The notes: generated from the sequence alone by a model not told the origin. 57,335 bases of DNA from Candidatus Buchananbacteria bacterium RIFCSPHIGHO2_02_FULL_56_16 (GCA_001817495.1 MHIL01000023.1:1-57335), one strand, 5' to 3'; counted from the stretch's first letter, positions 16,223 through 46,860 are shown. A program made the numbers and translations.

Positions 16223-16250
16223 CTTGGAGAGTCGCGGTGAGCGGTGTATA

Positions 16251-22233: not shown

Positions 22234-22363
22234 ATATTCAATTGACCCCTCGACTAAACTTGGGGTTATCTCGATTGCAATCGAGAGATGAACTGGCTAT
22301 TGCATCTGCCCGCCTCTGGCGGGGAGAGGGTTTGGATGTATCACGCCGCCGCGTCTAATACTT

Positions 22364-26200: not shown

Positions 26201-29200
26201 ACGGTCAACGCTGATGACTTTCAATGTAACGGCAGCGATGAAAATATAGTCCCGCCAAATCTTCGAGGGGGCTGCCATGAGTGGGACAAGAATTACGCTA
26301 ACTTTGTCCGATCGCCTGACGCCGTCGGCGGCAACATCATGATCAACGGTATCAGTTCAGTTGGGCTCAACGACCAGTGGCAGCGGTTCTCGGCGGTCCT
26401 CGCCATCAACGATCCCGTGTTCGACGCCGCTAAAAAACTGGAAATTATTTTGTACACTATTACTCAAGGTACCGGCTCGATCCTCTACGATGACATCCAG
26501 CTCGAGGAGGTTACCGGCAGCGTCCGGACTGAAGCGGTGCCGTTCCAAGGCTACACCACGCTGACGGAAACCCACCTGCGCAAGGCGCCGGACTACCTTG
26601 GCTGCCAGGGCTTCAGCCTGGAACGGCCCAGCGACTATGTGCTCAACGGCGTGACCGAAGCCAGCTGTATCGGTGACACTCTGGTTTGGCGGCCGGAGAG
26701 CTGCGTTGGCGGCTTCTGCTGCCGCCAGATAGACCCGCCCGAGTGCGCCGGCTACGCCCCGTACTGCCAGGCCGACGAGATCGGCTGCCAGTCGTTTACG
26801 CCGCTCCAGGGCGGGCTGCCCGTTCCCGGTGTCGCCGCTGCCGACGACTACTGCGGCGCTGAATGCGTGGGCTACGACGCGTTCAAGCAGGCGCCGACCT
26901 ACTTTGAGCGGACCCAGTCCATCGAATTCTTCATCCCCAAGACCGCGGAACAGTGCAGCCTGGCCCAGGCCGGCTGCGACGAGTTCACCAACCTCGACGA
27001 GGCAGGGGCCGGCGGCGAAGATCGCGAGTACTACCAGTACCTGCGCCAGTGCACCAAACCCGGCGCGGCCGGGGTGAGCTGCGGCACCTTCTACAGCTGG
27101 CAGGGTTCGGACGACAGCGGCTATCAGCTCTCAACCTACAGTTTAAAGACCGCCGGTGCCAGCCCCAACGAGGTCATCGAGTACAATCCGGCCAGCCCCG
27201 ACGAGGTCGCCTACCCTGACGCCTGGTGCGACAACAAATCCGACGGTGATGGCGACGGTTCACCAGACTGCTGCGACGCCTCTGAAGACTTAACCCAGAA
27301 CCCGTTCTGCCGGGAATTCTTCGACCGCGACGGAGGCGTTCACTACGTCCTGGAACAAAACACGATCACCTGTTCAGATGATTGCCACCCCTACCGAAAG
27401 ACCCGCCTCGGAGAAACCGATGCCGAAGCCCAGGCGAACTGTTCGGCCTCGAACCCGGCCTACACGGGAGCGGCACTGAATCCCGGCTGGCAGGACAACG
27501 CCTGCGTCTACTACGCCATCCCCGATCAGGGTGTCGCCTGCCCGGCCCAAGCCGCGGGCTGCCGCGAGTACCGCGGCAACGCCGGCGGCAACGTCTTCAC
27601 CGCGTTTTACGACAGCTTTGAAGACGGCGACAGCCTCGGCTGGCAGACCGGTCAGATGAGCAGCCTGGCGCTCTCGGTCGGCGGCCACTCGATCAAGAGC
27701 CAGTCGGGCACGCTCCAGACCATGGCCGCCTCGATGGGCGCGGCAACCTGCGACGCTGCCCTGACGGTCTGCGACGGAGCAACGTATCCCTGCTACCAAG
27801 CGGCGACGAACACCTGCCTCGCCCAAGAGCCAACCGGCCAGACCTGCGAGGTCGCGCTTGGGACGACTGATTGCGGCGTGTTTGATGCCGCTTTCGCGAG
27901 CGGCCGTGACTACCTGCTCACCTTCTGGGCCCGGAGCGAATCGGGCAATACGCCGGTTACCATGCAGCTTACCGACAGCGCTGGGGCGACGACAATTGCC
28001 CAAGTCGCGCTGACCGCGAACTGGCAGTACTACACGTTCGGGCCGATCCGCTACGACTGGCCGCGCGGCACCAAGCTGGTTGCCCGGAACGCGAATAGCA
28101 AGGACTTCTTCTTCGACAACGTTACCTTCAAGGAGATTACCGGCTACGTCTACGCCATTAAAAATTCCTGGCAGACGCCAACGAGCTGCGACACCAACCC
28201 GTTCGTCAGCCCGGCGGTGCCCGCGCCGCAGTTTATGCTCGGCTGCCAGCAGTACCGGGATTCCAGTAACCAAATCCACAACCTCAAGTCGTTTTCCAGC
28301 CTCTGCCGCGAAGACGCGGTCGGCTGCGAAGCGCTGCTCGACACCTTTAACTCGGACGACCCGTTCGCGAGTGAGTTTAACACCGCCGACGCCGCCGGCA
28401 CGGTGACGGTACCCCAGGATCGGGTGGTTACCATGGTCAACAGCGCCGAGTTCCGCTGCGACTCGACCCAGGAAGGCTGCCAGCGCCTCGGCCGGCCCAG
28501 CCTCGACCAGAGCGGCGCGGTGGCCGGCTACACCGATGCGTACGTCTTGAACGATCCGGATCAGTACCCAACCACGCTCTGCGGCAGCGGCGAAGTGGGC
28601 TGCGCCGAGTTTCAGACCAACCATGGCTTCTTCTACTTCAAAGCGCCCGGGCTGCAGACCTGCGAGTACCGGCAGATTCCCAACCAGCCGGGCGGCTTTG
28701 GCTGGTTTAAGATCGGTTCCGCCTCGGCCACGCCGGACTGCCCGATTACCCGCTCGCCTTTGGGTATCGTCCACCCGGCGACCGGCTGGACCGGGCTGTG
28801 TCCGGCCGGCGCGGCCAGCTGCACCGAGTTCATTGATCCGGTGAGTAACAATGCGAAGAACTTGATTTTTAACGTGGACTTTAAGCAGGATCTCGACCTT
28901 AACGGCAAACCCGACGGCTGGAGCAGTTTGCTCAGCGCGCTGGAGCAAACGATCACCCTGACGCGCAACACCCTCTACACCGTGGCGATCAGCTCGAACG
29001 GCACCGCGCTGGACAGTTCCGATCTTGAGGTACAGATTACCGGCTGCCCGGGTATCACTTCACCCGACCACTCAATGGTCAGCGCCGGCACGGACGCGCT
29101 CCAGCTGCCGGTCTCCGACTTCAAGGGCGACCGGCTGCGCCGGCCCGACCTGCCGGATGAACGGCAGTACTCGGCCCGGTTCTTCGTGCCGGCGGCGGGC

Positions 29201-32200
29201 GGCGGCACCTGTACGCTGCGGCTCAACCCGGGCGGCGCCTCCTCAATCACCAGCCTCTTGCAGGCGGTGGCCGTACGCGAGAGCGGGGTGGACTACGTGC
29301 TCGCAAGCGACGTTAACAAGACCGGCTGCAACGGCATCGTCAACGAGCTCAACGGCTGCGTCTTGTTTAACGACCGCAGCGGTGTCAACTACAAGATCGG
29401 AGAGACCGACAACTCGTACCTCCGCTTCGACGCCGACATGAGCCGGCCGGGCGTCAACAGCAGCGTGCCGGTGGCAAACTGCGGCGGCGCCTGCGACAGC
29501 AGCACCATTTTGAAGGTTCGTCCGGACCGAACCTGCGGCCAGTGGCTCGACTGCCAGACCAAGGTTAAGTCGGTTGACGCGAGCGGCAACGAGGTTACCT
29601 ACTGCGTCGAGCTCGCGGCTTGCGATGAATTGAACGAGTCCGGCGAGTGCACGAACTTCATCTTATCCGACCGCCAGAAGGTTAACGGCTCGAATGACAA
29701 CACCACGGTTGAGTTCCTTAACCACGATAAAATTGCCTACCTCTCGGGCTACGCCAAAGCCGGTTCAACCCTTGCCGACGCAACGGGTGCGCAGGGGGTG
29801 ATACCCGGCGCGGCGTTTGATGCCGCTAACACCTTCAACGGCTACTACCCGTTCAACCTGATGAGCCAGTTCGGCGAGGTGGCGAAGGTGCCGAACGGCA
29901 GCTTTGAGGACTACCCCGAGGTCGAGTACCCGGTTGGTTGGGCCTGGCAGAACGGCGACGGCCGGCGCTGGGGCAGCCACCTCTTCCGGGTGATCTCGAG
30001 CGTGGTTGAGGCCCAGGACAACGAGGGCATCACGCTGCAGGGCCGGGCGTCGCTTAAGCTGAATGCAGACAACGTCGTCATTTCTGATCCGATTTCAGTT
30101 TTACCCAATACCGACTATACCTTGAGCGCCAGTATTAATACGTTAAACCTTCAGCCGACTGAAGCCGAGGCGATTGTTGATCTGGTTGACGCTTCGGGTA
30201 ACCAGCTCGCCCCGCCCGTCGAGCTCCGGCTCAAAGCGCGGCTGGACTGGACCAGCCTTTCGGTGATCGTTAACCGTACCGCCATTACCGGTACCGAAGT
30301 CAGGGTTCGCCTCCGCAACTTCCATCCCAATACCGCACTGATTGCCGAGTCTTCCTACTTTGATAACATCCAGATGCTGCCTACCCTCGAGGTTCAGGCG
30401 CTGCCGCCGTACACCGGCGAGAAGAATTACGTCAGCCGCTCCTGCCGCGTCTTCCCCCAGCAGGACTCGCTGGCCTGCAGCTACCGCGATACGGCCGGCG
30501 CCATCCAGCAGGGCTGGTCCGGCTACTGTTTGGAGCCAGACCCCCAGCGGTCCGGCGTCTGCCTCCAGTGGTGGCCGGTTGACCTGATCAAGGGCGACGC
30601 CTTCGGCACCTACATTGGCTACAACGGCCGGCTGCCGCTCTACTACTGCATGGAGACGAGCATGTCCACGACGCGGATAGAGTTCCTTAAAGAAGGAGAT
30701 ATGACGATCAGTGGTGACTATAATGACGTAACACCAGAGATTGATAAGAACAATTTGGATAAAGATAAATGTATTACGTATAAGAAGCCAAATGGCGGAA
30801 AACTTGAATTTCCCGATGGGTCGAGCGTTACGTTAACCGGCGGAAATAGATGCGGGTCCGACTGGGTGGTCGGCGTCTGTAAGTATGAGGGAGAAAAAAC
30901 CGCTGATATTGATATTTTTCATAAGAACCTCATTGACCGGATTAGGGTCTTTAGCCTTGCAGATGATGGTGACGTTGCCCACAGCATGGAGGGCTGGCTT
31001 GGTTACTGCTTTAACATGTCCGTGGAGGGTAAGGTCGAGTTTTTTGATGTTGAAGCAACTCCTAAATTTGGAGGTACGGTGCCAGTTACCGCCAGTCCAA
31101 ACCAAACTTGGCTCGCGGCCACTAACGGCAAGGTTTGCTCATACGGGGGTAAAGCAATTTTTGACAAGGAAGGATTACTGGATCAGATGTGGTTTTGGAT
31201 CGCCGATCAATCTAGTAAGTGCACCCATAACTTCGAGTGGCAAATTGGGGTTGATGTTCATCTGAATCGGAACTATTGTACGCTGCTGGCTCAAACCGTG
31301 ACGCCTGTCGGTGAGAACAAAGCCTGGGTGTCACGGGTGGCAGAAGGCAGCTCGTACGACGACCTCGAGTGCACGGTTAATGGCACGAAGCCGCTCTTCT
31401 CGATTAACGGTGCCTGCGCGCCGGGAGTTGACTGCGTGTTCGTCAATAGCGAAAAGACGTACCGTTGCGATACCGATGCGAACTTTGACGGTGTACCGGA
31501 TGGAGCACGCTGCAGCGTCTGCGAGTACAACACCGACTACGCGCCGTTCGGCGCCGCGGTACCCGAGGATCCCTACAATATTACCAACTCGGACAAGCTC
31601 TACTGGCAATTGCCGGACACGGAAAACTTTGAGCCGCCCTACCAGGCGCGTATGGGCCAGGTGCCCTACACCTATGGCACGGCGCCCAGCGCCTACAGCA
31701 CCTACCTCAAGCGCCTGTTCGCCCAGAGCTTCAGCTTCTGGAAATGGCAAGAGATTGGGGATCTGGTTTGCCTAGGCGGAACTAATGACGGAAAGGTCTG
31801 CACTGATAGCAGCCCGCAATGTCCCCAAGGTTCATGCATTGATCGTGGCACCCTTTGTCAAGGTAATACCTCAACGCGAGGGGCGGAGTGCAACGTGGCA
31901 GCGTGTGGTTTTGATAGCGGTGGTGTGAGTATCCCCTGCATAGAAGTTAATGACCTAAGTGAGTGCGAGGGTAGTGCCTGTGATAAAGTTTTCGCTTGTG
32001 ACTTCAACGCTAACGGCAGTTGGGATGTTGGCACAGATAAGCGCTGTTGTCCCGTGTCTGTTGCCGGTGGTCCGGATCCAACTTGTGAACAGAAGTATAG
32101 CTGTTCAGATGATAGTTTGAATGCGGGGCAAGAGTGTACGTTCAATGCTGATGAGTGTCCGGGTGGCACCTGCGCGCAGCAGCGTCAGGGTTTCCAGCCG

Positions 32201-33133
32201 GACTTAAGAGTCACTTGTCCAGCAGGAATTCTCTGCTTGCAGGTCACAGGAACTGATGAGTTCCGCTGCGGCGGCACTTCCGGCGGCGCGCTTTGCAGCC
32301 CTTTCCGCTGGAGTCCGCCTGACCGGTTGTGTGAGACGCTGACTGGTCTGAATGACAATAGCCGGCCGACAACGTTGAATTTCAGTACCGATGCCGACTA
32401 CTGCGCCATCGCGCCGCTGGTTAAAAACATCCTGATTAACGGCCAGAACGGAACCGCTGCGCCGCTCAAAATTATTAACCAGCGCGGTTCCGGCTCGGCG
32501 ACCCTGCTGTTTAACGCGGTGCTTGACGGCAACCAGCTGCCGCTGACCGCCTACCAGGTTGACTGGGGCGATGGCTCCAAGGTGGCGGTGTCCGGCACCA
32601 ACCTGCGCGACCGCTCGAACACCGTGGCGCCTTACAAGCTGACCCACTCCTACAGCTACTACGAAATTTTATCCCAGAATCAGAGCGGCGACCGGATCTA
32701 CTGTTCGGCCGTGCTTGGCGATGTGCCAGCTGGGGTGCTGCCTAAAGGCTTTTGCTCCGGCGGTCCAACGCCCGGCGCCAGCTGCGAGAATTCGACGCAG
32801 TGTTCGCCGGGCGGCGTCTGTAACCTCACTTGGTGCGCGGTCAAGCCGCGGATTCAGATTCAGGACAACTGGGGCTGGTGCAACGGCAGCATTGATCCGG
32901 GCAGCGGCGTGCTCCTGGGGCCGCAGTGGGGCTATCGCGTCGGCAGCGGAGCGCCCAACTGCAGCAGCGACGGCAGCGGCGTCTGTGCCGGAGGTACCGC
33001 GCCCGGTAGTGCATGTACGACGGTAGCGCCGTGCGCTGGCGGCGGGGTCTGCCAGCTCGATAACGCTGACGCCTGGACGACGTTTGGCGGTGCGAGCGCG
33101 AGCGGCTACGTCATTGTCGGGATCAACGATTAG
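23225..33133 (+). CDS. Giant (3302 aa) Cys-rich extracellular protein with an N-terminal signal-anchor; putative adhesin or pilus-tip protein
   Basis: It is a single uninterrupted ORF with genome-typical codon bias. It has an N-terminal TM segment, several jelly-roll/CBM-like domain starts (NLLPNPGFE, VPNGSFEDY), a PKD-like YQVDWGDGS motif, a recurrent GC-x-(E/Q)-(F/Y) motif and C-terminal C-x-GG-x-PG-x-C knots. Confidence 0.85.
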   Translation: MIHQVHQDKQREANRRSRPVARFILSGCMLLTLALGLVAPAMLYPTPAAAAGIPTFDAANLRAWFSQIGYNFAEQAERLAQQIEKRTAAIAFKSALHLFLNNLAYDSATWLAAGGKGQTPYFHTDSWGAYLTKAADGAAGDFISKLGESWLDGFNVCQPDLPFRINVAQGFQDNFIRRQPDCTASELARDWERFVQRDDFLSQFVKQFNSQQNEVLIGLTLWDKYYQALSFETKTKEQDRIEGQGFQPVTSAISGKILTPASLTKAQADALINNQADAEKISTGDIVADAISTFINTLAGKLFQRLFKEGLASLRDDDDARRSFISRDLYTGESGRDLFTGRQAAEARYVTLVDAGIITGGPYELLQQLATCRDLSNPGPEECVIDQNFRLAIEQEMTVREAIDAGYLDGSAPFGFISPGVAPPYAGDKKGYPYRSLLILRAHRIIPVTWEVAAKIIDEGFTGSDRVVTLNALIAEYDNSDSPFYRLIDQYWVLKAPEAFCKAEGYGPVIISDQVSNDGQRIVTRSQYCADYQSCIEKDSKGKCIYGYCTEEQPTWNLQAESCLPEYSTCQTFVNGGGQTVSYLQNTLNYNSCSADNAGCQWYCQSYNVPSATWACVNAGEQVLKPCAAPSGCPLNAGCSIAEAGTFCTDAVSGANLTISTACSPSTQWWQADLFGTGVGGCQAGASCTVEYQGVQCVQTGCESRQNLLPNPGFETAAPAGTLAAKWGGDPAYFERVSGGQERIHRGRSSVRFYNAGSMAGVTMRSDELTVPRAGAYTVSGYVFDRLNVGSISFSVLVNGGAVADPPVMLTQTAKNRWYQVSFDTPALNANDRIKIVVIVAGEQVSGLAWFDDFSLTESCLVNPVTLTLAGAIAEDESKIHFDRDAKQCSAEADGCSQFYASPTRRISNLLFSVTDPSFELYQDSTTQPGDQDFKNWTAVRAVVKASSDAHSGGAAMQLRDDSGGAETYVSLTFDTGEPLNERMFIVSYYAKTVNADDFQCNGSDENIVPPNLRGGCHEWDKNYANFVRSPDAVGGNIMINGISSVGLNDQWQRFSAVLAINDPVFDAAKKLEIILYTITQGTGSILYDDIQLEEVTGSVRTEAVPFQGYTTLTETHLRKAPDYLGCQGFSLERPSDYVLNGVTEASCIGDTLVWRPESCVGGFCCRQIDPPECAGYAPYCQADEIGCQSFTPLQGGLPVPGVAAADDYCGAECVGYDAFKQAPTYFERTQSIEFFIPKTAEQCSLAQAGCDEFTNLDEAGAGGEDREYYQYLRQCTKPGAAGVSCGTFYSWQGSDDSGYQLSTYSLKTAGASPNEVIEYNPASPDEVAYPDAWCDNKSDGDGDGSPDCCDASEDLTQNPFCREFFDRDGGVHYVLEQNTITCSDDCHPYRKTRLGETDAEAQANCSASNPAYTGAALNPGWQDNACVYYAIPDQGVACPAQAAGCREYRGNAGGNVFTAFYDSFEDGDSLGWQTGQMSSLALSVGGHSIKSQSGTLQTMAASMGAATCDAALTVCDGATYPCYQAATNTCLAQEPTGQTCEVALGTTDCGVFDAAFASGRDYLLTFWARSESGNTPVTMQLTDSAGATTIAQVALTANWQYYTFGPIRYDWPRGTKLVARNANSKDFFFDNVTFKEITGYVYAIKNSWQTPTSCDTNPFVSPAVPAPQFMLGCQQYRDSSNQIHNLKSFSSLCREDAVGCEALLDTFNSDDPFASEFNTADAAGTVTVPQDRVVTMVNSAEFRCDSTQEGCQRLGRPSLDQSGAVAGYTDAYVLNDPDQYPTTLCGSGEVGCAEFQTNHGFFYFKAPGLQTCEYRQIPNQPGGFGWFKIGSASATPDCPITRSPLGIVHPATGWTGLCPAGAASCTEFIDPVSNNAKNLIFNVDFKQDLDLNGKPDGWSSLLSALEQTITLTRNTLYTVAISSNGTALDSSDLEVQITGCPGITSPDHSMVSAGTDALQLPVSDFKGDRLRRPDLPDERQYSARFFVPAAGGGTCTLRLNPGGASSITSLLQAVAVRESGVDYVLASDVNKTGCNGIVNELNGCVLFNDRSGVNYKIGETDNSYLRFDADMSRPGVNSSVPVANCGGACDSSTILKVRPDRTCGQWLDCQTKVKSVDASGNEVTYCVELAACDELNESGECTNFILSDRQKVNGSNDNTTVEFLNHDKIAYLSGYAKAGSTLADATGAQGVIPGAAFDAANTFNGYYPFNLMSQFGEVAKVPNGSFEDYPEVEYPVGWAWQNGDGRRWGSHLFRVISSVVEAQDNEGITLQGRASLKLNADNVVISDPISVLPNTDYTLSASINTLNLQPTEAEAIVDLVDASGNQLAPPVELRLKARLDWTSLSVIVNRTAITGTEVRVRLRNFHPNTALIAESSYFDNIQMLPTLEVQALPPYTGEKNYVSRSCRVFPQQDSLACSYRDTAGAIQQGWSGYCLEPDPQRSGVCLQWWPVDLIKGDAFGTYIGYNGRLPLYYCMETSMSTTRIEFLKEGDMTISGDYNDVTPEIDKNNLDKDKCITYKKPNGGKLEFPDGSSVTLTGGNRCGSDWVVGVCKYEGEKTADIDIFHKNLIDRIRVFSLADDGDVAHSMEGWLGYCFNMSVEGKVEFFDVEATPKFGGTVPVTASPNQTWLAATNGKVCSYGGKAIFDKEGLLDQMWFWIADQSSKCTHNFEWQIGVDVHLNRNYCTLLAQTVTPVGENKAWVSRVAEGSSYDDLECTVNGTKPLFSINGACAPGVDCVFVNSEKTYRCDTDANFDGVPDGARCSVCEYNTDYAPFGAAVPEDPYNITNSDKLYWQLPDTENFEPPYQARMGQVPYTYGTAPSAYSTYLKRLFAQSFSFWKWQEIGDLVCLGGTNDGKVCTDSSPQCPQGSCIDRGTLCQGNTSTRGAECNVAACGFDSGGVSIPCIEVNDLSECEGSACDKVFACDFNANGSWDVGTDKRCCPVSVAGGPDPTCEQKYSCSDDSLNAGQECTFNADECPGGTCAQQRQGFQPDLRVTCPAGILCLQVTGTDEFRCGGTSGGALCSPFRWSPPDRLCETLTGLNDNSRPTTLNFSTDADYCAIAPLVKNILINGQNGTAAPLKIINQRGSGSATLLFNAVLDGNQLPLTAYQVDWGDGSKVAVSGTNLRDRSNTVAPYKLTHSYSYYEILSQNQSGDRIYCSAVLGDVPAGVLPKGFCSGGPTPGASCENSTQCSPGGVCNLTWCAVKPRIQIQDNWGWCNGSIDPGSGVLLGPQWGYRVGSGAPNCSSDGSGVCAGGTAPGSACTTVAPCAGGGVCQLDNADAWTTFGGASASGYVIVGIND

Positions 33134-33155
33134 TACGAGCAAGAAGAATTTCTTA

Positions 33156-33640
33156 AGTACCCCGTTCTTGGGGTAAGAGGGGGAACTAAGGTTAAAATGA
33201 TCGGGCCCGCTACGCCAACGCGTTAGCGTGGCGAGGGAGTTACGAGAATAGGTCAAAGCCGTAACCCCTTCTAACTTCCCCTTAACGTAAGGGGAAGGAT
33301 ACTTGGGCAGCGCTTTATGCTTATTCGCAGCATTTGCCTTGACAAGAAGAACATCGTAAGCACCCCCCTCTTGGGTTAAGAGGGGGAGCTAAGGTGAGAT
33401 TAAGTGGGCCCGCTACGCCAACGCGTTAGCGTGGCGAGGGAGTTACGAGTAATGCTGAAGCCTGCCCGCGCGCGGCGCGCAGGCGGGCCGTAACCCCTTC
33501 CCCGCCTCGACTCGCCTTCGGTAAAGCCACGGCGAGGCGGGTAACTTCCCCTTAACGTAAGGGGAAGGATACCAGGTAAGAGCTTTATGCTTATCTGCCT
33601 GAGCGTTGCACGCAGACAGGTTCGCAGCATTCGCATGAGT
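33156..33640. repeat. Two tandem copies of a structured intergenic module of about 200-280 nt (candidate ncRNA or MITE pair)
   Basis: Copy 1 is about 33156-33348 and copy 2 about 33357-33640. They share identical blocks of 44 nt (33203-33246 = 33407-33450) and 31 nt (taacttccccttaacgtaaggggaaggatac). Copy 2 differs by three inserted hairpins. Confidence 0.75.
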
Positions 33641-33678
33641 TCGCATCATTAGCATCGCGTATTGAAAAAAAGATTACG

Positions 33679-36600
33679 ATGAAAACGTGGAGGAACATCC
33701 TGAATCGGCGAACGGTCCTGACGGCGCTGTGTCTTTTCGCGCTTGCCGTTACCGTTTTTACCGTTGCCGTATCCGCGCCACTCGTATTGGCTCAAGAAGA
33801 GCCGCCCCGCCCAACGAGCGACTACGAGCAAGACGATCTTGGGCCGTTAGAGGCCGGGTCCTCCGGCGCTTTCAATACACGGCCAACACCTGTCAAAAAG
33901 GCCGAGGCAGAAGAATCAAATGTCTTTCTCTCAACCTTCGTAAATCTACTGGTCGGAGGATTGGCCAGGATCGTCATCTGGCTCGAGGGGTTTGTCATAA
34001 CTGCTCTGATCGCGATCTTGCTCCTCGTGGTTAAGTATAACAGCTTCGCGACCGCTGGGGCGGTCAGCAACGGCTGGACCTTGGTCCGTGACGTTGCCAA
34101 CCTGTTCTTCGTGGTCGTGCTGCTGGGTATCGCGCTGGCCACGATCCTGCGGGTTGAATCCTACAACTTCAAGAAGCTGCTGCCCAAGCTGATCCTGATG
34201 GCGATTCTGGTCAACTTCAGCAAGGTCATCGCCGGCCTGATCATTGACTTCGCCCAGGTGGTGATGCTCACCTTCGTCGCCGCCTTCGCCGGCGTTTCCG
34301 GCGCCGGCAACATGGTAACTACCCTGCAGATCCAGTCAATTATTACCTACAACTGGTCCAACGCCGCGGAGGCGAGCGCGGCAAACTTCACGGGTACGGC
34401 GCTGCTGATGGCGATCATGCTGCTGATTACCATTGGGGTCCTGCTGGTGATGCTCGTCGTGCTGGTGATGCGCATCGTGATGCTCTGGGTGCTGGTGGTG
34501 CTCTCGCCGCTGGCCTACATCATGGCCGCGTTTCCCCAGGGGCAGCGCTACGCCCAGCAGTGGTGGCAGGAGTTCACCAAGTACGTGATTGTCGGCCCGG
34601 TGCTCGGATTCTTCCTCTGGCTGACCTTCGCCGTCGCCAGCGCCGGGGACATTGCCCAAAAAGAGTTTGGCAGCCAGAAAGGCTTAGCCGCTGCCGGCGC
34701 CGGTGACGCGTTGAGCGCGAAGCTTGCCAAGCAGGCCGGAGTTCAAACGAAAATCGGCCAAACCGACCATCTGCTGTCGTTTATCATCGCCATTGCCATG
34801 CTGATGGGGTCCTTGGTCATTACCCAGCAGATCGGCGTGGCCGGCAGCCAGTTCGCGGGGTCGATGTTTAATAAGATTCGCCAAACCGGGCTCAAGGCGC
34901 TCCTGGCGCCGGGCAGGGCGGTGGGCTGGACCGCGAAGACCGCGGCCAAGGCGCCGTTTCAATTTGTCGGCCGCAAGGTCAATGAGGCAATCGGTGAAGG
35001 CAAATTGCCGGCCTGGGCGAGTCCGGCCGGGATGGTTCGCGGGTGGGGTGCACGGCGGGCAGAATTGTATGATGTATCAAAACGTAAAGCTGCCGCTGCT
35101 GGCCATGAAAAATGGGAACAGCTTTTTACCGGAACATCGTTGCCTCGGGTATCACAAATTGAATTAGCGGAAGAATCTAAGTTCGCTAAAGATTTTGCGG
35201 ACGTATACGATAAAGAACAAATGGCAGCAGAGTGGGTTGGATTAAGGAACGCGCCGCAATCGGCGGAAATTAGGGCTAAAAAAAGAGGCTTGATCAAGGC
35301 TGGCGGCGTAGCGGGTTTTTTGGATGATATAATGGCTCATCCGGAAACGAAAGCACATACTCGCAATTACATCAAGAATTTGTATAAAACGACCAAGGAT
35401 GATCAACTAAAAGCGGCTATGGATGAAAAGGATGAGAAAACCGGCTTAAGTCTAATGGATAATGTAAACGATGATAAGGGTGCATGGTACAACTGGCAAA
35501 CACTCCATTTCTTTTTGCAAGAGTCTCTCGGGAGCGATCAGGCCGGGATGACGACGATGCAAACCCTTGAAGATATTGGCAAAAAAAATGGTCATCCAGA
35601 ATACGGTGGCCATGATACCTATCGATCATCACTCGAAGGCGGCCACGACGAGATGGAAATGGAAAGGATTTATGATCAAAAAGACGCTGCCGGTAAAATT
35701 ATTAGAAAATCTGGTCAAAAACGCATGCAGACTGAACTTTCTAAAATGCAGGGTCGCAGCAGGCTTGGTTTAGCGCCGCATGCATTTATGGCAATGAATA
35801 ATGATGGTACCTACGCTATGGGAATGCCAGAGCGGTTGGCGGCGACAGCTATGTTCGGCGCCCAGGGCGCAAGAATTTTTGAGCACTCTCAAAAGCGAGA
35901 TTGGACCATGGCTATGGGTGGCAGCCCAGATGAAGTGAACTGGGTCGAAGGTCAGGAAACAGAAGTTGCGAATTTTGATAAACCAGATGCATCACTGCGA
36001 AACATAATCAACCACGCCAAAGGTTTTGCTTTTCTTATGCAAAGTGCTGCTAATCCACGAGAGCCAGTCGACGTAATTGTTAAAACGGCGTGGAAAACAA
36101 CTGGTGGAAAAGGTGAGCCCCAGTTTCAGGTTAATGGAAAGGTCTATGGCGCTGATGAATTCTTAAGCGAGTTTGGAGAACAGGCACACGCAACGCCGTC
36201 GCCCGCGCCTACGCCTGGTTCAGCCCCAGCGCCCGGCCCCAGCGCCCCGATGGCTGATATTGACATCGCTAAGCACGAGCGAACCAAGCAGGCGATTGAC
36301 GCCTTTAGCGCTCAAACTGGTTTATCAGCGGCTGATTTTTACCAGTCTCGGTCGTACAAGGCTGATCAGTATACTGCCCAAGGAGATTTTGAGCGTAACG
36401 AGCAGCTGATGGGTGGCTGGCGGCAAGAAATTGGCCGTATCAGGCCGGACGTTGATCAGGCTAACCCCGAGGCGGTCGAGCAGGCGATTCGTGAAGAGCA
36501 GGGTAAAGTTCGGGGTGTGAAGTCGGCTAGCGGCAAAGGTGAAGGTGAGCAGGCCGGCGTTGGGCTTGACTTCTCCGATAAAGACGTCCAGCGCATCTTT

Positions 36601-38430
36601 GGCGTCAATCAGTCACAAGCAGGTGCCTACTACAAACAAGGCGATCTAACCAAGGCACAAAAGACTTTCCTCGGGGATAAATATCATACGCAGTTGTTAA
36701 ATGAAGGGGTTGATGAAAAAACGGCGGTAGAGAGGTGGGCGGCTTTCGACGAGACATTGGACAAGGTTGGTTCCCTCCGGATGACCAATAATAGCGGCTA
36801 TGCCTCACGCCTTGAAACCGGCCGTCATGAACGGGCCCACCCGGAAATTGAGAAGCTTGCTCCAGCCCAGATTGATGAAATCTACAATTCAATTGAGAGC
36901 GACCGCCGACTCCAGATGGAAGCTGAAGTCAAGGCTCGGTGGGGTAACATTAGTCCGCTGGATGCCAAGAAAGAAATTCTGACCCAGGGTTTGGCCAGCT
37001 ACGGCCGTTCAGATGCCCGCGAACCGTTGCAGCTCACTGACGCGGCGGCTCGAGCCATGGCGGCAACCGGTGCCGTTAAGATGAGCAACGCGGCGAAGCA
37101 GCGGCTCGATCAGGCGTACCCTGAGGCTGCCGTGACCAAGGGAGAACTCAAGACGATTGATAAGCAGCGTGCCGCAACGGCCAAAGCCCAGGCGCGTGAC
37201 GCTAAGGCCGCGGCTCAAGCCGAACGCCAAACCGTTAAGGAACGGCAGCGGCAGCTGCAGCAGCGCGAGGCACAAAACGCGCCGGTATACACCCAGGCGA
37301 TCAGCGCTTTGAGTACGCTCAATCCCAGCCAGCTCGGCCAGCTGTGGGGTAAGCTGTCAGCGGCTCAGCAGTCGGCGCTAACGGAGGAGGTACGAGAATC
37401 CTACCCGGCAGCCGCCCGCTCTGTTCCTGTTGGCGATTACAACTTGCAGCTGGCGGCGTTGAGCCGGGCGCTGGCGCGAACGAATCTCGAACCGGCGGCG
37501 AAAGATAGTTTGCATCTCGACGCAACCGTCGTCGAGGCGATAAAGAGCCAGGGAATCGATACGGCATCAGTCGGTACTAAAAATGAGCTTTACCGTCAGG
37601 CGCAGCAAACTCAGGGTACCTACCAGCAGCGCCGCACCGAGTATGAGCAGCTAGCGGCTCGGAAGGCTAACTACGGTGATGCGATGCGGCAGAAACAGGC
37701 GGAAAACAACGCCGAGGTTAAGCAGCGGAATGAAGCGGCCCGCACCGCCGCCAGCCGTGGCGATATGCCAGCCGCCGCAGAGGCAAGAAAGATGGCTGAA
37801 TTCTTACAAAAAGAGAACGCTCGCATTGACCAAGATGTGGCCAAAAAAGGCAAAGAATTTGACGTTGATATTAATAAAGCAAAGTCAAAAATGCAAGCCG
37901 CGTTGGATCAGGTTATGGATTTGGAAACTCGGCGTCGACCCGAACCATCAGTACCGCAAGCCGTCCACCAAGCCTTCTCAACCGTTGCTCACCCGGTCAA
38001 TGAACAAGCCCGCCAGCAGGCGCAGCAGGTTATTGCGCAGGCGCCACCGGCCGAGGTTGTTGCGGCAGCGCAGGAAGCAGTAGATAAAGAAGGTGAAGAG
38101 CTGAAGCGGGCGACAGGCAGTGCTGATAACGGGGCAATCCTTGCGGTATTGACGAGTATTGAGAGTATTTTGGAGGGGGTGAAATCATCACTTGACAAAT
38201 TATCTGGAGACAAGGTTAATAGCGCTGAGCGGTCGCACTTTGATGACCTCATGCGTCAAGTCAGTTTGAGCCGAGGATCGATGGCCGCCGGTGGTCAGCT
38301 CGACCCAGGATCGGTGGCTGGGCTGCTTCGTGATGTCAACAATAATTTAAAGAGCATCTATCGCAAGACTGGTCAAAAAACGGGCAGCATGCCGACGGAA
38401 ATACCACCCAAGACTTCAGGTGAGGAATAA
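33679..38430 (+). CDS. 1583-aa polytopic membrane protein (VirB6/TrbL-like N-terminal region) with a long Ala/Gln/Lys-rich helical C-terminal extension
   Basis: It has a signal peptide and about 6-8 TM segments in aa ~90-400. About 1150 aa of soluble, coiled-coil-like sequence follows. The functional call comes from topology and context only. Confidence 0.45.
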   Translation: MKTWRNILNRRTVLTALCLFALAVTVFTVAVSAPLVLAQEEPPRPTSDYEQDDLGPLEAGSSGAFNTRPTPVKKAEAEESNVFLSTFVNLLVGGLARIVIWLEGFVITALIAILLLVVKYNSFATAGAVSNGWTLVRDVANLFFVVVLLGIALATILRVESYNFKKLLPKLILMAILVNFSKVIAGLIIDFAQVVMLTFVAAFAGVSGAGNMVTTLQIQSIITYNWSNAAEASAANFTGTALLMAIMLLITIGVLLVMLVVLVMRIVMLWVLVVLSPLAYIMAAFPQGQRYAQQWWQEFTKYVIVGPVLGFFLWLTFAVASAGDIAQKEFGSQKGLAAAGAGDALSAKLAKQAGVQTKIGQTDHLLSFIIAIAMLMGSLVITQQIGVAGSQFAGSMFNKIRQTGLKALLAPGRAVGWTAKTAAKAPFQFVGRKVNEAIGEGKLPAWASPAGMVRGWGARRAELYDVSKRKAAAAGHEKWEQLFTGTSLPRVSQIELAEESKFAKDFADVYDKEQMAAEWVGLRNAPQSAEIRAKKRGLIKAGGVAGFLDDIMAHPETKAHTRNYIKNLYKTTKDDQLKAAMDEKDEKTGLSLMDNVNDDKGAWYNWQTLHFFLQESLGSDQAGMTTMQTLEDIGKKNGHPEYGGHDTYRSSLEGGHDEMEMERIYDQKDAAGKIIRKSGQKRMQTELSKMQGRSRLGLAPHAFMAMNNDGTYAMGMPERLAATAMFGAQGARIFEHSQKRDWTMAMGGSPDEVNWVEGQETEVANFDKPDASLRNIINHAKGFAFLMQSAANPREPVDVIVKTAWKTTGGKGEPQFQVNGKVYGADEFLSEFGEQAHATPSPAPTPGSAPAPGPSAPMADIDIAKHERTKQAIDAFSAQTGLSAADFYQSRSYKADQYTAQGDFERNEQLMGGWRQEIGRIRPDVDQANPEAVEQAIREEQGKVRGVKSASGKGEGEQAGVGLDFSDKDVQRIFGVNQSQAGAYYKQGDLTKAQKTFLGDKYHTQLLNEGVDEKTAVERWAAFDETLDKVGSLRMTNNSGYASRLETGRHERAHPEIEKLAPAQIDEIYNSIESDRRLQMEAEVKARWGNISPLDAKKEILTQGLASYGRSDAREPLQLTDAAARAMAATGAVKMSNAAKQRLDQAYPEAAVTKGELKTIDKQRAATAKAQARDAKAAAQAERQTVKERQRQLQQREAQNAPVYTQAISALSTLNPSQLGQLWGKLSAAQQSALTEEVRESYPAAARSVPVGDYNLQLAALSRALARTNLEPAAKDSLHLDATVVEAIKSQGIDTASVGTKNELYRQAQQTQGTYQQRRTEYEQLAARKANYGDAMRQKQAENNAEVKQRNEAARTAASRGDMPAAAEARKMAEFLQKENARIDQDVAKKGKEFDVDINKAKSKMQAALDQVMDLETRRRPEPSVPQAVHQAFSTVAHPVNEQARQQAQQVIAQAPPAEVVAAAQEAVDKEGEELKRATGSADNGAILAVLTSIESILEGVKSSLDKLSGDKVNSAERSHFDDLMRQVSLSRGSMAAGGQLDPGSVAGLLRDVNNNLKSIYRKTGQKTGSMPTEIPPKTSGEE

Positions 38431-38456
38431 TCAGTTACTATATAATGAAATGAGTC

Positions 38457-39707: not shown

Positions 39708-39719
39708 GCCAAGCGTATC

Positions 39720-39754
39720 AGGAATTAGGAATTAGGTTGTAGCTTGTAGTTCTT
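39720..39754. repeat. Left arm of the inverted repeat bracketing the four-helix-bundle gene
   Basis: The reverse complement of aggaattaggaattaggttgtagcttgtagttctt matches 40160-40194, apart from a 7-nt indel and one mismatch. Confidence 0.75.
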
Positions 39755-39798
39755 TAGTAACAATCAACATGGCGCCATTCATTATTAATACTGTTACT

Positions 39799-40161: not shown

Positions 40162-40254
40162 GAACTACAACCTAATTCCTAACTCCTAACTCCTAACTCC
40201 TAACTCCTAACTCCTAACTCCTAACTCCTAACTCCTAACTCCTAACTCCTAACT
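40160..40254. repeat. Right arm of the inverted repeat, followed by a (TAACTCC)x10 perfect heptamer microsatellite just upstream of metK
   Basis: The arm is aagaactacaacctaattcc. Ten perfect TAACTCC units span 40180-40249, followed by a partial unit. The metK ATG is at 40259. Confidence 0.9.
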
Positions 40255-40258
40255 AAAC

Positions 40259-41568: not shown

Positions 41569-42870
41569 ATGGCCGCTGATCAGCCAAATAAAAACGACGA
41601 ATTTTTTCAGCTCCTAGCCGCCGAGCCCGGCGGGCCGGGCGGTACCGCTGTCCGGAATCCGTTTAATGATGACGAGATTGTCTTTCGGGATGAACGCGGC
41701 GAAATTAAGGTGCTCAAGGGAAAACAGGTAACGCCGTTAGCTCGGGCCGGCGTCCAGCGGCGGGAATCAACCGGTCCGGCGGTTGAGCCGGCTTCACCGC
41801 CCCCCGAACCGCTTCCGGCAGCGCCGCCGCCAGCGACCGCCGGCCTGCCGTCGCCGAGCGCGTCGATTGCTCAAGCCGCGACGCGTCACCGGCAGGCTAT
41901 TGCCGACACCGTGGAGTCAATCACCGCCAGCCATCAGCTCAAAAAAACTTTTGCCGAAGCAGCGCTCGAGAAACGATTTAAAAATCTAATCCTCTCGATG
42001 CTGACCGGCGTGCGTAACGCCGTCGAGACGAGGGAGATGCTCACCCGGCCAGTGGCGGAAGGCGGCCTGGAATTTAGCCAGCCGGAAGCGGCAGACGTGC
42101 TGGCGGCTATTGATCAAGCGAACCGTTCAATCACCGGTCAGGCTCACCACCAGCCGCCACCGGCGTTGAGCCTTGAAGGTCAGCAGCTGTTGAGCGATAC
42201 CGCCGCACCGGCTCCGCCCACGCTCACCTTCACCGACCCGCTACGCCCGCGTAGCGTGGCGAGCCCGATCCTCACATCGGCTGTCGCTCCGTCATCCTCG
42301 CCGCTGCCGCCGGTTGCCCCGCCAAATCCGATAGCGCCGCCCCGCCCCGTGAAGGCGTTTCAAGAGCCGCCGGCTCCGGTGGTTGCCGTCCGGCCCAGGC
42401 CAGCGGCCGCTGCCGAGACGCCAATTGGTCGTCAGACGGTTCAACCGGCGGAAGGCTCGCCACGCTTCGGCGGCGAAGCGGGCTCGCCACGCTTCGGTGG
42501 CGAAGCGGGCAGACCGAAGATCGAGGATGTAAAGTTTAAGCCAAAATCAATGGGTCCGGTCGAGGAGATTGGCGCGCTCACGGCGCTCGATTTCCGCCGG
42601 CTCGGCGCCAACCCGAACGAGGCGGGTCTGGCGATTATGGAAAAAATTGAGCAGCTGGAGCAGGAGTCGTTTAGCCAGCGGATCGCGGCGATTAGGGCCT
42701 GGCAGGACAGCCCCGTCTACCGGCTGTACCTCGAGCTCGGCGGCGCGAGCATGGAAGAGAAGAAGCCGGTCGCGACCGTCATCGCCGAACGGCAGGCGGC
42801 GCGCACGCCAACGCTGACCGAACCGGAGTTTGAGGCGATTTCGGATTTAAACCAGAAGCTAAGACATTAG
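41569..42870 (+). CDS. Pro/Ala-rich hypothetical protein (433 aa) carrying three copies of the palindromic element
   Basis: It is a long ORF with a disordered Pro-rich middle and a conserved-looking helical C-terminus. It is bracketed by a perfect 19-bp inverted repeat. Confidence 0.65.
   Translation: MAADQPNKNDEFFQLLAAEPGGPGGTAVRNPFNDDEIVFRDERGEIKVLKGKQVTPLARAGVQRRESTGPAVEPASPPPEPLPAAPPPATAGLPSPSASIAQAATRHRQAIADTVESITASHQLKKTFAEAALEKRFKNLILSMLTGVRNAVETREMLTRPVAEGGLEFSQPEAADVLAAIDQANRSITGQAHHQPPPALSLEGQQLLSDTAAPAPPTLTFTDPLRPRSVASPILTSAVAPSSSPLPPVAPPNPIAPPRPVKAFQEPPAPVVAVRPRPAAAAETPIGRQTVQPAEGSPRFGGEAGSPRFGGEAGRPKIEDVKFKPKSMGPVEEIGALTALDFRRLGANPNEAGLAIMEKIEQLEQESFSQRIAAIRAWQDSPVYRLYLELGGASMEEKKPVATVIAERQAARTPTLTEPEFEAISDLNQKLRH
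42237..42265. repeat. Inverted-orientation copy of the in-frame palindromic element with compensatory stem changes
   Basis: The sequence is cccgctacgcccgcgtagcgtggcgagcc. Its stem is cgctacg/cgtagcg instead of cgcttcg/cgaagcg, and it is read as [10 protein letters not shown]. Confidence 0.8.
42454..42510. repeat. Two tandem copies (27-nt period) of the in-frame palindromic element
   Basis: The sequence is ggctcgccacgcttcg-gcgg-cgaagcgggctcgccacgcttcg-gtgg-cgaagcgggc, read as GSPRFGGEAGSPRFGGEAG. Confidence 0.9.
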
Positions 42871-46830: not shown

Positions 46831-46860
46831 TAAGTTAGTAAAGTAAGCAAGACAAGGAGG

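What the first reader, a model, noticed from the sequence alone, without database searches (positions are those of the whole stretch)
33156..33640. Duplicated, hairpin-dense intergenic module between the giant gene and the VirB6-like gene, containing expanded relatives of the in-frame element
The 545-nt spacer holds two tandem copies of a module with long identical blocks. One is a 44-nt block gggcccgctacgccaacgcgttagcgtggcgagggagttacgag at 33203 and 33407. Another is the 31-nt perfect hairpin block taacttccccttaacgtaaggggaaggatac, and gctttatgcttat is also shared. Copy 2 differs almost only by three extra self-contained hairpins (about 33454-33488, 33501-33541 and 33593-33616). That is the pattern seen when structured RNAs gain expansion segments, or when small palindromic elements nest into each other. 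The reverse complement of the 44-nt block, ccctcgccacgct-aacgcgttggcgta-gcgggccc, has the same outer arms (CTCGCCACGCT...GCGGGC) as the coding-region element, with a longer centre. This may therefore be the parental or master form. Its position between two very large co-oriented genes also suggests an RNA-level role such as processing, attenuation or a small RNA.
Basis: seen in the sequence. Interest (0 to 1): 0.75.

Follow-up and report, generated by a model that had tools for sequence, protein, structure and literature searches.

The report
Mosaic palindromic repeats between two genes
The 545-base gap between two huge genes of this groundwater Patescibacteria (Buchananbacteria-like) genome holds two copies of a hairpin-rich repeat that also occurs at many unrelated sites in related uncultured bacteria. 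One small GC-rich palindrome nested inside it is scattered across many Patescibacteria, including in frame inside genes, so this looks like repeat DNA of an apparently undescribed family and not a dedicated regulatory RNA.

Summary
The spacer 33134-33678 holds two tandem modules (33137-33337 and 33340-33634). They share exact 44-nt and 31-nt blocks, and the second carries three extra hairpins.

The interpretation needs revising in four ways.
1. In the three closest syntenic relatives the same two genes abut (gap 5, 4 and -1 nt). The spacer is therefore a lineage-specific insertion.
2. The whole ~200-nt module recurs at 63-87% identity next to unrelated genes (purC, metG, ribD, tsaD and others) in other metagenomic contigs. 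It is often tandem, truncated or recombined.
3. The 31-nt core of the 44-nt block is an optional 30-nt insert, present 0-3 times per module. The same core occurs in many Patescibacteria MAGs, both intergenic and in frame in ORFs, and it nests inside other copies of itself.
4. Two of the three "extra hairpins" behave differently from the third and from each other. Insert 1 recurs at the same module site elsewhere and in frame in a tsaD gene. Insert 2's site holds a different insert in other copies.

The two window copies are only 83% identical, no closer than to copies in other organisms. Rfam, promoter and terminator scans are negative, and covariation is weak.

Best reading: a BIME/BOX/RPE-like mosaic of nested palindromic repeats, probably co-transcribed and tolerated. 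Its mobilising machinery is unknown. I rate it a new variant of a known kind.

The parts
33134..33678 (+). Whole 545-nt spacer between the giant ORF and the TrbL/VirB6-like ORF. It is a lineage-specific insertion.
   Evidence: ORF map. The orthologous junction is 5, 4 and -1 nt in L009, L010 and L011, with orthology confirmed by tblastn.
33137..33337 (+). Module copy 1, the short form: head, H1, linker, core, H3, H4, H5.
   Evidence: nhmmer hit to the module profile, E=1.7e-60. Alignments A1 and A2.
33340..33634 (+). Module copy 2, the long form: the same scaffold plus three inserts.
   Evidence: nhmmer E=3.4e-58. Pairwise alignment of the two copies.
33160..33183 (+). Hairpin H1 of copy 1 (CCCCGTTCTT GGGGT AAGAGGGGG). 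The H1 of copy 2 is at 33363-33386.
   Evidence: In other loci this hairpin carries an optional insert GGCCTGYCCGCCTCTGGCGG.
33205..33235 (+). Core palindromic unit, copy 1 (GCCCGCTACGCCAACGCGTTAGCGTGGCGAG).
   Evidence: Identical over 31-32 nt to a Buchananbacteria MAG locus, L016. It is an optional 30-nt insert of the module.
33408..33438 (+). Core palindromic unit, copy 2.
   Evidence: Strain L007 carries four SNPs in and next to this unit, two of which extend the stem.
33236..33268 (+). Hairpin H3 of copy 1 (GGAGTTACG ... CGTAACCCC). In copy 2 it spans 33439-33497, with insert 1 in its loop.
33460..33486 (+). Insert 1 of copy 2, a GC-rich hairpin (GCCTGCCCGCGCGCGGCGCGCAGGCGG) in the H3 loop.
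   Evidence: The same insert sits at the same site in the modules of L074, L076 and L112. It also occurs alone, in frame, in the tsaD ORF of L048.
33501..33541 (+). Insert 2 of copy 2, a 41-nt hairpin between H3 and H4.
   Evidence: Unique in sequence. The same site holds a different 34-nt hairpin in L047, L074 and L076.
33272..33302 (+). The copy 2 H4 is at 33542-33572.
   Evidence: A subfamily (L040b, L046, L080) carries compensatory U-A to C-G changes.
33312..33324 (+). Small hairpin H5 (AGC TTTAT GCT) of copy 1. In copy 2 it is at 33582-33594.
   Evidence: Stem sequences differ but still pair in other copies: AAGCC/GGCTT in L112, AAGG/CCTT in L056, GGCT/AGCC in L040 (read).
33595..33620 (+). 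Insert 3 of copy 2, a weak hairpin after H5.
   Evidence: Seen only in this species.
33621..33653 (+). Short direct repeats TTCGCAGCATTYGC (also at 33324-33337) in the tail before the start codon.
   Evidence: family D3. Similar ACGAAT/ATTCG-type short repeats flank modules in L056 and L098.
42456..42510 (-). Two tandem 27-nt in-frame core units of the same family, inside the 433-aa ORF. Further in-frame units are at 4888-4915, 8462-8489, 42236-42263 and 56833-56860.
   Evidence: They encode GSPRFGGEAGSPRFGGEAG, which is absent from the orthologues.
22306..22324 (+). Isolated hairpin CTGCCCGCCTCTGGCGGGG, the same sequence as the optional H1 insert of modules in other loci.

Best explanation
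The spacer is a tandem pair of members of a dispersed, mosaic family of nested palindromic DNA repeats. It is not a locus-specific RNA gene.

Anatomy. Each module is a ~150-170-nt scaffold of hairpins (H1, H3, H4, H5) with rough two-fold symmetry. Smaller GC-rich palindromic units are optionally inserted at fixed sites in that scaffold. It is present 0-3 times per module. It also occurs independently across many Patescibacteria genomes, in intergenic DNA, in riboswitch loops, inside other copies of itself, and in frame in protein-coding genes as 27- or 30-nt units.

Origin. In this Buchananbacteria-like genome two diverged family members (a short and a long form, 83% identical) occupy a junction of a conserved type-IV-secretion-like gene cluster. 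In relatives that junction has no spacer.

What is shown: the anatomy, the dispersal, the optional inserts, the nesting, and the lineage-specific presence.

What is inferred:
- The units spread or are amplified by a hairpin-dependent DNA process. Candidates are insertion into loops and G-runs, slippage giving tandem units, and recombination between copies. The enzyme is unidentified.
- The array is transcribed through together with the flanking genes in the sense orientation. It has no U-tract terminators and no recognisable promoter.
- Any host effect is a by-product. A block of very stable RNA hairpins (about -76 and -141 kcal/mol) would uncouple the two genes and could act as a 3'-exonuclease barrier or processing site, as REP/BIME and BOX elements do.
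For: Lineage-specific insertion. The giant-gene and VirB6-like orthologues abut in L009, L010 and L011, with gaps of 5, 4 and -1 nt. Orthology of the C-terminus was confirmed.

Dispersal of the whole module. Megablast and nhmmer find it in L040 (twice), L046/L098, L047 (twice), L048, L056, L074, L076, L080 and L112 (four places). Its neighbours are purB/purC, rsmI/metG, ribD, tsaD, a sigma factor, a subtilase and others. Three contigs end inside modules, as expected of repeats.

Mosaicism.
- Core copy number is 0 (L040 5953-6102, L047 near 1560), 1, 2 (L076) or 3 (L112). An empty and a filled site differ by exactly 30 nt.
- Optional inserts recur at fixed sites in several loci.
- Copies are found truncated and recombined.

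The core as an independent element.
- It is identical or nearly identical in MAGs labelled Buchananbacteria, and closely related in others labelled Roizman-, Giovannoni-, Magasanikii-, Nomura- and Moraniibacteria, with 36-47% GC.
- It lies in frame in ORFs.
- It is nested in the loops of other cores in L053, L069, L075, L079, L081, L087, L057 and L106.
- It forms tandem arrays of variable number in L063, L104, L093 and L066.
- In-ORF copies have lengths of 28 or 31 nt only, whereas 29-, 30- and 32-nt variants are seen only outside long ORFs.

Conservation. The module matches the window at 83-96% nucleotide identity (megablast; 63-87% over whole aligned copies), while UvrA of one module-bearing organism (L046) is only 58% identical in protein sequence to the window's UvrA. 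The two window copies are no closer to each other (83%) than to foreign copies.

No sign of a dedicated RNA gene or signal. There is no Rfam hit, no promoter- or terminator-like site, and no conserved ORF.

Read-through is plausible. In L056 a module lies between the terminator of an FMN riboswitch (92 bits) and the ribD start codon.
Against: - No mobilising enzyme was found. There is no Y1/RAYT or other transposase among the window ORFs or among 20 ORFs flanking modules. Only fragments of genomes were available.
- No target-site duplication can be read. The insertion site is a G-run.
- Module arrays are co-oriented with neighbouring genes in about 11-12 of 14 determinable cases (with L056 corrected by eye). 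Hairpin pairs are 97% preserved. Wobble G-U pairs outnumber A-C mismatches 17 to 3 on the sense strand (which is biased by how the structure was derived). All three are what an RNA-level function would also predict.
- In about 67 kb of this particular genome only these two modules were found. Dispersal of the full module is therefore documented in other organisms, not in this one.
Confidence: 0.75

Rival explanations
1. The modules are cis-acting structured RNA elements that act on the transcript of neighbouring genes, as processing or stability modules or as an attenuator. They would be selected at the RNA level, and the optional hairpins would be true expansion segments.
For: Sense orientation relative to flanking genes in most arrays. 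Placement in a 5' UTR downstream of an FMN riboswitch. 97% of stem cells are paired, and a few changes are compensatory or G-U. Folding energies lie well below shuffled controls.
Against: The element is absent from the orthologous junction in three relatives. Neighbouring genes are functionally unrelated. Copies are truncated, recombined or lack the core. The covariation term is about zero and only 3 of 42 pairs show double changes, two of them from a single event. The antisense strand folds equally well. There is no Rfam family.
Confidence: 0.12
2. Each module is a small RNA gene, and the family is a multi-copy trans-acting sRNA. The spacer would then hold two such genes.
For: A conserved ~200-nt unit, multi-copy, hairpin-rich and consistently oriented.
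Against: No promoter-like or terminator-like sites on either strand. Many copies are partial or fused head to tail without boundaries. The core copy number varies from 0 to 3. No Rfam match.
Confidence: 0.05
3. One reading: a recent local tandem duplication at this locus, followed by gain of three new hairpins in the second copy.
For: Adjacent copies in the same order and orientation, with exact 44-nt and 31-nt shared blocks.
Against: The copies are only 83% identical overall, the same as their identity to copies in other organisms. Insert 1 is identical in the modules of L074, L076 and L112, and insert 2's site is occupied by another hairpin elsewhere. Short and long forms are therefore pre-existing family variants. 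Tandem arrays of modules are common in other loci.
Confidence: 0.05
4. An ordinary intergenic control region, made of the terminator of the giant gene plus the promoter and leader of the VirB6-like gene.
For: Its position between two large genes. Most genes in the window seem to have their own -10-like boxes close to the start codon and lack Shine-Dalgarno sequences.
Against: No sigma-70-like promoter or intrinsic terminator was detected in 32800-34000 on either strand. Relatives need no spacer here. The same sequence sits next to unrelated genes.
Confidence: 0.03

Closest known systems
REP elements and BIMEs (bacterial interspersed mosaic elements) of Enterobacteria and Pseudomonas
   Same: Short (20-40 nt) GC-rich imperfect palindromes that cluster with other short motifs into mosaic arrays. 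They lie between co-transcribed genes, form RNA hairpins without terminating, and vary in unit number.
   Different: REPs are extragenic, whereas this core also sits in frame inside ORFs. REPs carry a GTAG or CGTC tag at one end (PMC3733652), which is absent here. REPs are tied to RAYT transposase genes, and none was found in the sequence available. The sequences are unrelated and the phylum is different.
BOX elements of Streptococcus pneumoniae (boxA-(boxB)n-boxC)
   Same: Modular intergenic repeats with a variable number of a short internal subunit, predicted to form stable secondary structure, and with no known transposase. This rests on my own knowledge.
   Different: No sequence relation is known or was tested. 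BOX subunits are not reported inside ORFs or across phyla. Here several different optional inserts exist.
Rickettsia palindromic elements (RPEs)
   Same: Palindromic repeats that insert in frame into protein-coding genes as well as into intergenic DNA and RNA genes, adding short peptide segments to variable regions. This rests on my own knowledge.
   Different: RPEs are 100-150 bp and confined to Rickettsia. The in-frame unit here is 27 or 30 nt, self-nesting and tandemly amplifiable.
ERIC/IRU and Correia (NEMIS) elements
   Same: Imperfect palindromes of ~100-150 nt in transcribed intergenic regions. ERIC has longer variants with insertions at fixed internal sites. Correia elements are processed at the RNA level. 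This rests on my own knowledge.
   Different: Correia elements have defined inverted terminal repeats, a TA duplication, and promoter and IHF sites. None of these is shown here.
GC clusters of yeast mitochondrial genomes
   Same: Short GC-rich palindromes that stand out in AT-rich genomes, are mobile, nest, and can sit in frame in a gene (var1). See PMC4478555 for the general phenomenon. The var1 detail rests on my own knowledge.
   Different: An organellar, eukaryotic setting, with unrelated sequences.

Membership tests
REP/BIME | 20-40-nt imperfect palindrome repeated in the genome | tested here: met
   The 28- and 31-nt core occurs 8 times in the 57-kb window.
REP/BIME | Conserved GTAG or CGTC tetranucleotide at one end of the palindrome (PMC3733652) | tested here: not met
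   The core ends are GCCCGC... and ...GGCGAG. Neither strand begins with GTAG or CGTC.
REP/BIME | Strictly extragenic location | tested here: not met
   Cores lie in frame in ORFs in the window and in other genomes.
REP/BIME | Associated RAYT (Y1 HUH transposase) gene in the genome, typically flanked by REPs | tested here: inconclusive
   No Y1_Tnp hit among about 33 window ORFs or among 20 ORFs next to modules. Only about 67 kb of this genome and fragments of others were available.
REP/BIME | Mosaic clusters combining palindromic units with other conserved motifs | tested here: met
   Alignments A1 and A2, together with partial and recombined arrays.
MITE (miniature inverted-repeat transposable element) | Terminal inverted repeats | tested here: inconclusive
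   The module has rough two-fold symmetry. The H1 side resembles the reverse complement of the H4 side, giving a reverse-strand nhmmer self-hit at E about 2e-5. No sharp termini could be defined.
MITE (miniature inverted-repeat transposable element) | Target-site duplication | tested here: inconclusive
   Comparing an empty with a filled core site shows a gain of exactly 30 nt inside a G-run (AAGT GGGGG AGTTACG versus AAGT GGG...GGG AGTTACG). A 0-3-nt duplication cannot be resolved.
MITE (miniature inverted-repeat transposable element) | Related autonomous IS element with matching ends | not tested
   No whole genome of a module-bearing organism was on hand.
Rickettsia palindromic elements | In-frame insertion into ORFs, adding a peptide segment absent from orthologues | tested here: met
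   GSPRFGGEAGSPRFGGEAG and [11 protein letters not shown] fall in alignment gaps of three orthologues. An 11-residue insert lies in TsaD of L048.
Rickettsia palindromic elements | Unit length of 100-150 bp and one of the RPE consensus sequences | tested here: not met
   The in-frame unit is 27 or 30 nt. The organism is a Patescibacterium.
Curated structured RNA family (Rfam) | Match to a covariance model at the gathering score | tested here: not met
   There was no match in the window or in 12 module-bearing or core-bearing loci. The best E-value in the spacer was 1.4.
Conserved structured RNA (general) | Covariation supporting the helices | tested here: inconclusive
   Only 3 of 42 pairs have double changes, and 13 of 500 shuffles reach that number. 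The RNAalifold covariation term is +0.76. Most pairs never vary.
Intrinsic terminator | GC-rich hairpin followed by a U-tract | tested here: not met
   No sites were found on either strand in 32800-34000.

The most novel reading that the evidence does not exclude
The 27/30-nt GC-rich core is an actively mobile, horizontally spreading hairpin element specific to Patescibacteria. It is mobilised by machinery that is not a RAYT. It inserts into hairpin loops, riboswitch loops and, in frame, into protein linkers. The larger sense-oriented modules built around it have been co-opted as RNA-level stability or processing elements in operons of these tiny genomes.
Probability: 0.2. Interest if true: 0.8.

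Novelty: new variant of a known kind. Interest (0 to 1): 0.55.

Why it matters
Patescibacteria (CPR) genomes are small and tightly packed. As far as my text searches show, they are not known for interspersed repeats.

This work points to a family of self-nesting GC-rich palindromes with several unusual properties:
- It is nearly identical across MAGs labelled as different candidate phyla.
- It is tolerated in frame in housekeeping proteins and inside a riboswitch.
- In one lineage it is built into ~200-nt mosaic modules that pry open operon junctions.

If this holds up, it would give these organisms a new class of genome-plasticity element and a ready marker for recombination, strain typing and assembly breaks. 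It would also pose a concrete question: which enzyme moves it?

For annotation, it warns that hairpin-dense intergenic blocks and odd 9-10-residue inserts in CPR proteins are repeat DNA. They are neither novel RNA genes nor protein motifs.

Tried and rejected
- Rfam at gathering and permissive thresholds, on the window, the spacer and 12 related loci. Only tRNAs and one FMN riboswitch were found.
- Sigma-70 promoter and intrinsic-terminator scans of 32800-34000. None were found.
- Small ORFs in the spacer. None is conserved between the two copies.
- A search for other copies of the non-core pieces in the window and in 10 kb more of the same genome. None were found.
- The idea that L007's five clustered SNPs reflect inversion of the palindrome. 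The positions are not symmetric about one centre, so I rejected it (checked by hand).
- The idea that L112's 2533-aa ORF followed by a module is the orthologue of the window's giant gene. There is no tblastn similarity, so I rejected it.
- The idea that L006 and L007 differ structurally downstream. I rejected it: the small IVP gene and metK are also present in the window.
- Transposase search by Pfam on the window ORFs and on ORFs flanking modules. Nothing was found.
- A DUF559 endonuclease gene flanked by modules in L047. I followed it up, but homologues also sit in the module-free relative L009, so there is no specific link.
- Viral-contig scans. One core hit was found (L120). Two contigs carry diverged module-like pieces (L121, L123) and a third (L122) matches only the H1 hairpin. 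This is too little to call a phage vector.
- Literature searches by topic and by sequence strings. No description of the family was found.
- Strand test by G-U versus A-C counts. The result was 17 to 3, but I judged it biased by the way the structure was derived.
- An exact look-up of the ClpB-like protein to extend the right end of the window. It is not on record.

Full report
**Observation**

The window carries a 3302-aa ORF (23225-33133) and a 1583-aa ORF with a weak TrbL/VirB6 match (33679-38430) on the + strand. They are separated by 545 nt. The repeat finder and pattern searches confirm two tandem units. The 31-nt hairpin block is exact at 33272 and 33542. GCTTTATGCTTAT occurs at 33312 and 33582. 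None of these is expected by chance.

Copy 2 has three extra hairpin-forming inserts, at 33460-33486, 33501-33541 and 33595-33620. The reverse complement of the core shares CTCGCCACGCT...GGCG.AGCGGGC with 28-nt elements inside ORFs at 4888, 8462, 42456, 42483 and 56833, and with a variant at 42236. Both strands of both copies fold far better than shuffles, with z from -3.0 to -5.3. The hairpins are therefore real but give no strand information.

The spacer is identical in six other contigs of the same species, five of them from different samples. A seventh has five clustered SNPs in copy 2. It is not an assembly artefact. One correction is needed: outside the hairpin blocks the copies are only about 80-83% identical.

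**Organism and context**

Homologues of the VirB6-like protein come from Patescibacteria MAGs (Buchanan-, Kerfeld- and Falkowbacteria). The nearest is only 46% identical. Another window protein is encoded on NCBI contig MHIQ01000004.1 of GCA_001817585.1. By accession order and GC label this is probably Candidatus Buchananbacteria bacterium RIFCSPLOWO2_01_FULL_56_15, which is an inference.

The window is chromosomal housekeeping DNA: TrpRS or TyrRS, RNase J, UvrA, LeuRS, KsgA, MetK, RecG and a ClpB-like protein. Around these sits a conserved type-IV-secretion-like cluster: pilin-like genes, a TSP3 protein, the giant protein, VirB6-like, a 416-aa protein, MetK, a 433-aa protein, PrgI, TraC-like and VirB4-like.

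**The spacer is lineage-specific**

Three syntenic relatives keep the same gene order. In them the giant-gene orthologue and the VirB6-like gene are separated by 5 nt, by 4 nt, or overlap by 1 nt. Tblastn shows that the orthologues align to the very C-terminus of the window protein. A conserved regulatory RNA at this junction is therefore excluded. The 545 nt are an insertion.

**The core is a widespread independent element**

A degenerate pattern for the core found it in GTDB genomes labelled Buchananbacteria (identical over 31-32 nt), UBA4787, and Roizman-, Giovannoni-, Magasanikii-, Nomura- and Moraniibacteria. These genomes have 36-47% GC, against which the 70%-GC element stands out. It lies in intergenic DNA and inside long ORFs.

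A metagenome scan added about 80 loci, which show three further behaviours:
- Cores sit inside the loop of another core, in either orientation (L053, L069, L075, L079, L081, L087; L057, L106).
- Head-to-tail arrays with a 30-nt period vary in number between related contigs (L063 and L104 one copy, L093 three, L066 four or more).
- Core-like inserts occur in loops of an FMN riboswitch.

In the window's 433-aa protein the tandem units encode GSPRFGGEAGSPRFGGEAG in a linker that the orthologues lack. In my crude ORF maps all in-ORF family copies are 28 or 31 nt long, meaning units of 27 or 30 nt. The 29-, 30- and 32-nt variants occur only outside long ORFs. That is what selection against frameshifts would produce.

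**The whole module is also a repeat**

Megablast of the metagenome loci against the window showed similarity far beyond the core. An HMM built from the first alignment found full or partial modules in the following loci:
- L040 (two)
- L046/L098 (two)
- L047 (two)
- L048
- L056
- L074
- L076
- L080
- L112 (four places)

The consensus architecture has these parts, in order:
- A head (CAAGAAGAA..TCTTAAGTA).
- H1 (CCCCCCTCTT GGGTT AAGAGGGGG), with an optional insert GGCCTGYCCGCCTCTGGCGG.
- A linker.
- The core, present 0 to 3 times.
- H3 (GGAGTTACG...CGTAACCCC), with an optional loop insert that is exactly the window's insert 1.
- An optional insert site, filled by the window's unique 41-mer or by a different 34-mer in L047, L074 and L076.
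- H5.

Core-less modules (L040 5953-6102, L047 near 1560) differ from filled ones by exactly 30 nt inside a G-run. Insert 1 also occurs alone, in frame, in the tsaD gene of L048. The H1 insert occurs alone at window 22306-22324. Modules are frequently tandem, truncated or recombined, and three contigs end inside them.

Neighbouring genes are unrelated to each other: purB/purC-purE, rsmI/metG, L9, ribD, tsaD, a sigma factor, a subtilase, a VWA protein and a DUF559 nuclease.

UvrA of the L046 organism is 58% identical to the window's UvrA, while its module matches the window at 83-90% nucleotide identity by megablast (71-72% over the whole aligned copy in A2). The two window copies are 83% identical to each other. 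Their identity to copies in L056, L074 and L040 is 76-83%. The short and long forms are therefore pre-existing variants of the family, not a fresh duplication with new expansions.

**Structure tests**

RNAalifold on 12 copies recovers H1, the core hairpin, H3 and H4. The covariation term is +0.76. Only 3 of 42 pairs have double changes, and two of these belong to one H4 subfamily. In total 97% of cells are paired, but most pairs never vary, which says nothing either way. H5 shows different pairing stems in different copies (read), but it aligned too poorly to count.

G-U pairs outnumber A-C mismatches 17 to 3 on the sense strand. However, the structure was predicted on that strand with G-U allowed, so I do not rely on this.

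Module arrays are co-oriented with their neighbours in about 11-12 of 14 determinable cases (with L056 corrected). This is a real bias that the selfish-repeat model does not by itself explain.

In L056 a module lies between the intrinsic terminator of a bona fide FMN riboswitch (92 bits) and the ribD start codon. This implies that sense modules are read through. It also argues against the module carrying its own promoter, which would bypass the riboswitch (inference).

**Negative results**

- There is no Rfam family.
- There are no promoter- or terminator-like sites.
- There is no conserved small ORF.
- No transposase was found in any ORF examined.
- Viral contigs contribute little.
- No paper was found that describes these sequences.
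- In about 67 kb of this species only these two modules exist. Full-module dispersal is therefore shown in other organisms, while core dispersal is shown in this one (8 copies in 57 kb).

**Conclusion**

The finding is a genuine and unusual feature, but it is best described as repeat DNA. It is a tandem pair of members of a mosaic, self-nesting palindromic repeat family, comparable in behaviour to BIMEs, pneumococcal BOX elements and, for the in-frame core, Rickettsia palindromic elements. The pair is inserted into an operon junction of a Buchananbacteria-like genome.

It fails defining features of REP membership: it has no GTAG or CGTC tag and is not strictly extragenic. RPE membership also fails, on size and taxon. 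I therefore class it as a new variant of a known kind.

How the units move is unknown. That the array is co-transcribed and acts, if at all, as an RNA hairpin barrier between the two genes is inference. A selected RNA-level role remains a live minority hypothesis because of the orientation bias.

Noticed in passing
window 4888-4915, 8462-8489, 42236-42263, 42456-42510, 56833-56860: 27-nt palindromic core units lie in frame inside a TPR protein, an SBP_bac_5 solute-binding protein, the 433-aa cluster protein (three units, two of them tandem) and a ClpB-like ATPase. In the 433-aa protein they fall in linker regions absent from the orthologues.
   Followed up: partly
window 3231-3340, 13193-13262, 46176-46242, 53767-53850; also 16243-16290, 21245-21285, 46829-46874, 50910-50932: Many intergenic regions consist of short heptamer-like simple repeats (AGTAGTC/CTACTGA types and GTAAGTAAA types). 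Those of the first group (3231-3340, 13193-13262, 53767-53850) form long inverted arms between genes. This is a second, unrelated kind of intergenic repeat in this genome.
   Followed up: no
window 39708-40258: A GC-poor (~46%) island holds a small gene for a 23S-rRNA-intervening-sequence / bAvd-like four-helix protein (about 39769-40161). It is flanked by inverted heptamer-repeat arms (39720-39750 against 40158-40255, the latter a run of CTAACTC). It sits between the 416-aa gene and metK, a junction that is short in two of the three relatives (61 nt in L010, 8 nt in L011; several small ORFs lie there in L009).
   Followed up: partly
L007 3647-3908 (window 33408, 33419, 33430, 33437, 33460): One strain has five SNPs clustered in 53 nt, in and next to the copy-2 core, while the rest of the spacer and the flanking protein are identical. 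Two of the changes create extra outer base pairs and one breaks an inner pair. This looks like conversion by another family member or quasi-palindrome template switching.
   Followed up: partly
L056 280-960 (minus strand): An FMN riboswitch (Rfam 92 bits) carries core-like palindromes in two of its loops. Its terminator is followed by another GC palindrome (GCCTGCCCGCC...GGCAGGCGGGC), then a full module, and then ribD.
   Followed up: partly
L048 1839-1867: The GC-rich hairpin identical (1 mismatch) to insert 1 of copy 2 lies in frame in tsaD. It adds about 11 residues (RPPTRRARAGG) after the conserved N-terminal motif.
   Followed up: partly
L047 1134-1514; L009 14872-15224 and 16961-17293; L067 5115-5465: Small DUF559 (Vsr-like PD-(D/E)XK endonuclease) genes sit in intergenic gaps. 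One is flanked on both sides by modules. Two (one of them frameshifted) lie inside the T4SS-like cluster of a module-free relative. They may be selfish genes in their own right.
   Followed up: partly
L014/L044 and L016/L116 (Buchananbacteria RIFCSPHIGHO2_01_FULL_44_11): In this 44%-GC genome the same core is embedded in a different, ~120-nt palindromic shell (GTCGCCGACGCTCC...CAAAGCT..AGCTTTG-core-CGACGGAGCG...TCGGCGAGC). The shell is present at two or more loci, one of them next to a tRNA gene. Different lineages wrap the core in different scaffolds.
   Followed up: no
L121 2094-2160, L123 1315-1420 and 3069-3175 (IMG/VR contigs): Diverged pieces of the module (H4-like, H1 and GGAGTTAC) occur in two contigs classified as viral, with 59-61% GC. 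These may be misclassified Patescibacteria DNA or phages carrying the repeats.
   Followed up: partly
window, upstream of most start codons (e.g. 5419-5440, 10410-10434, 38431-38456): Genes lack Shine-Dalgarno sequences. Many have TATAAT-like boxes 7-15 nt upstream of the start codon, which suggests leaderless or very short-leader mRNAs in this organism.
   Followed up: no
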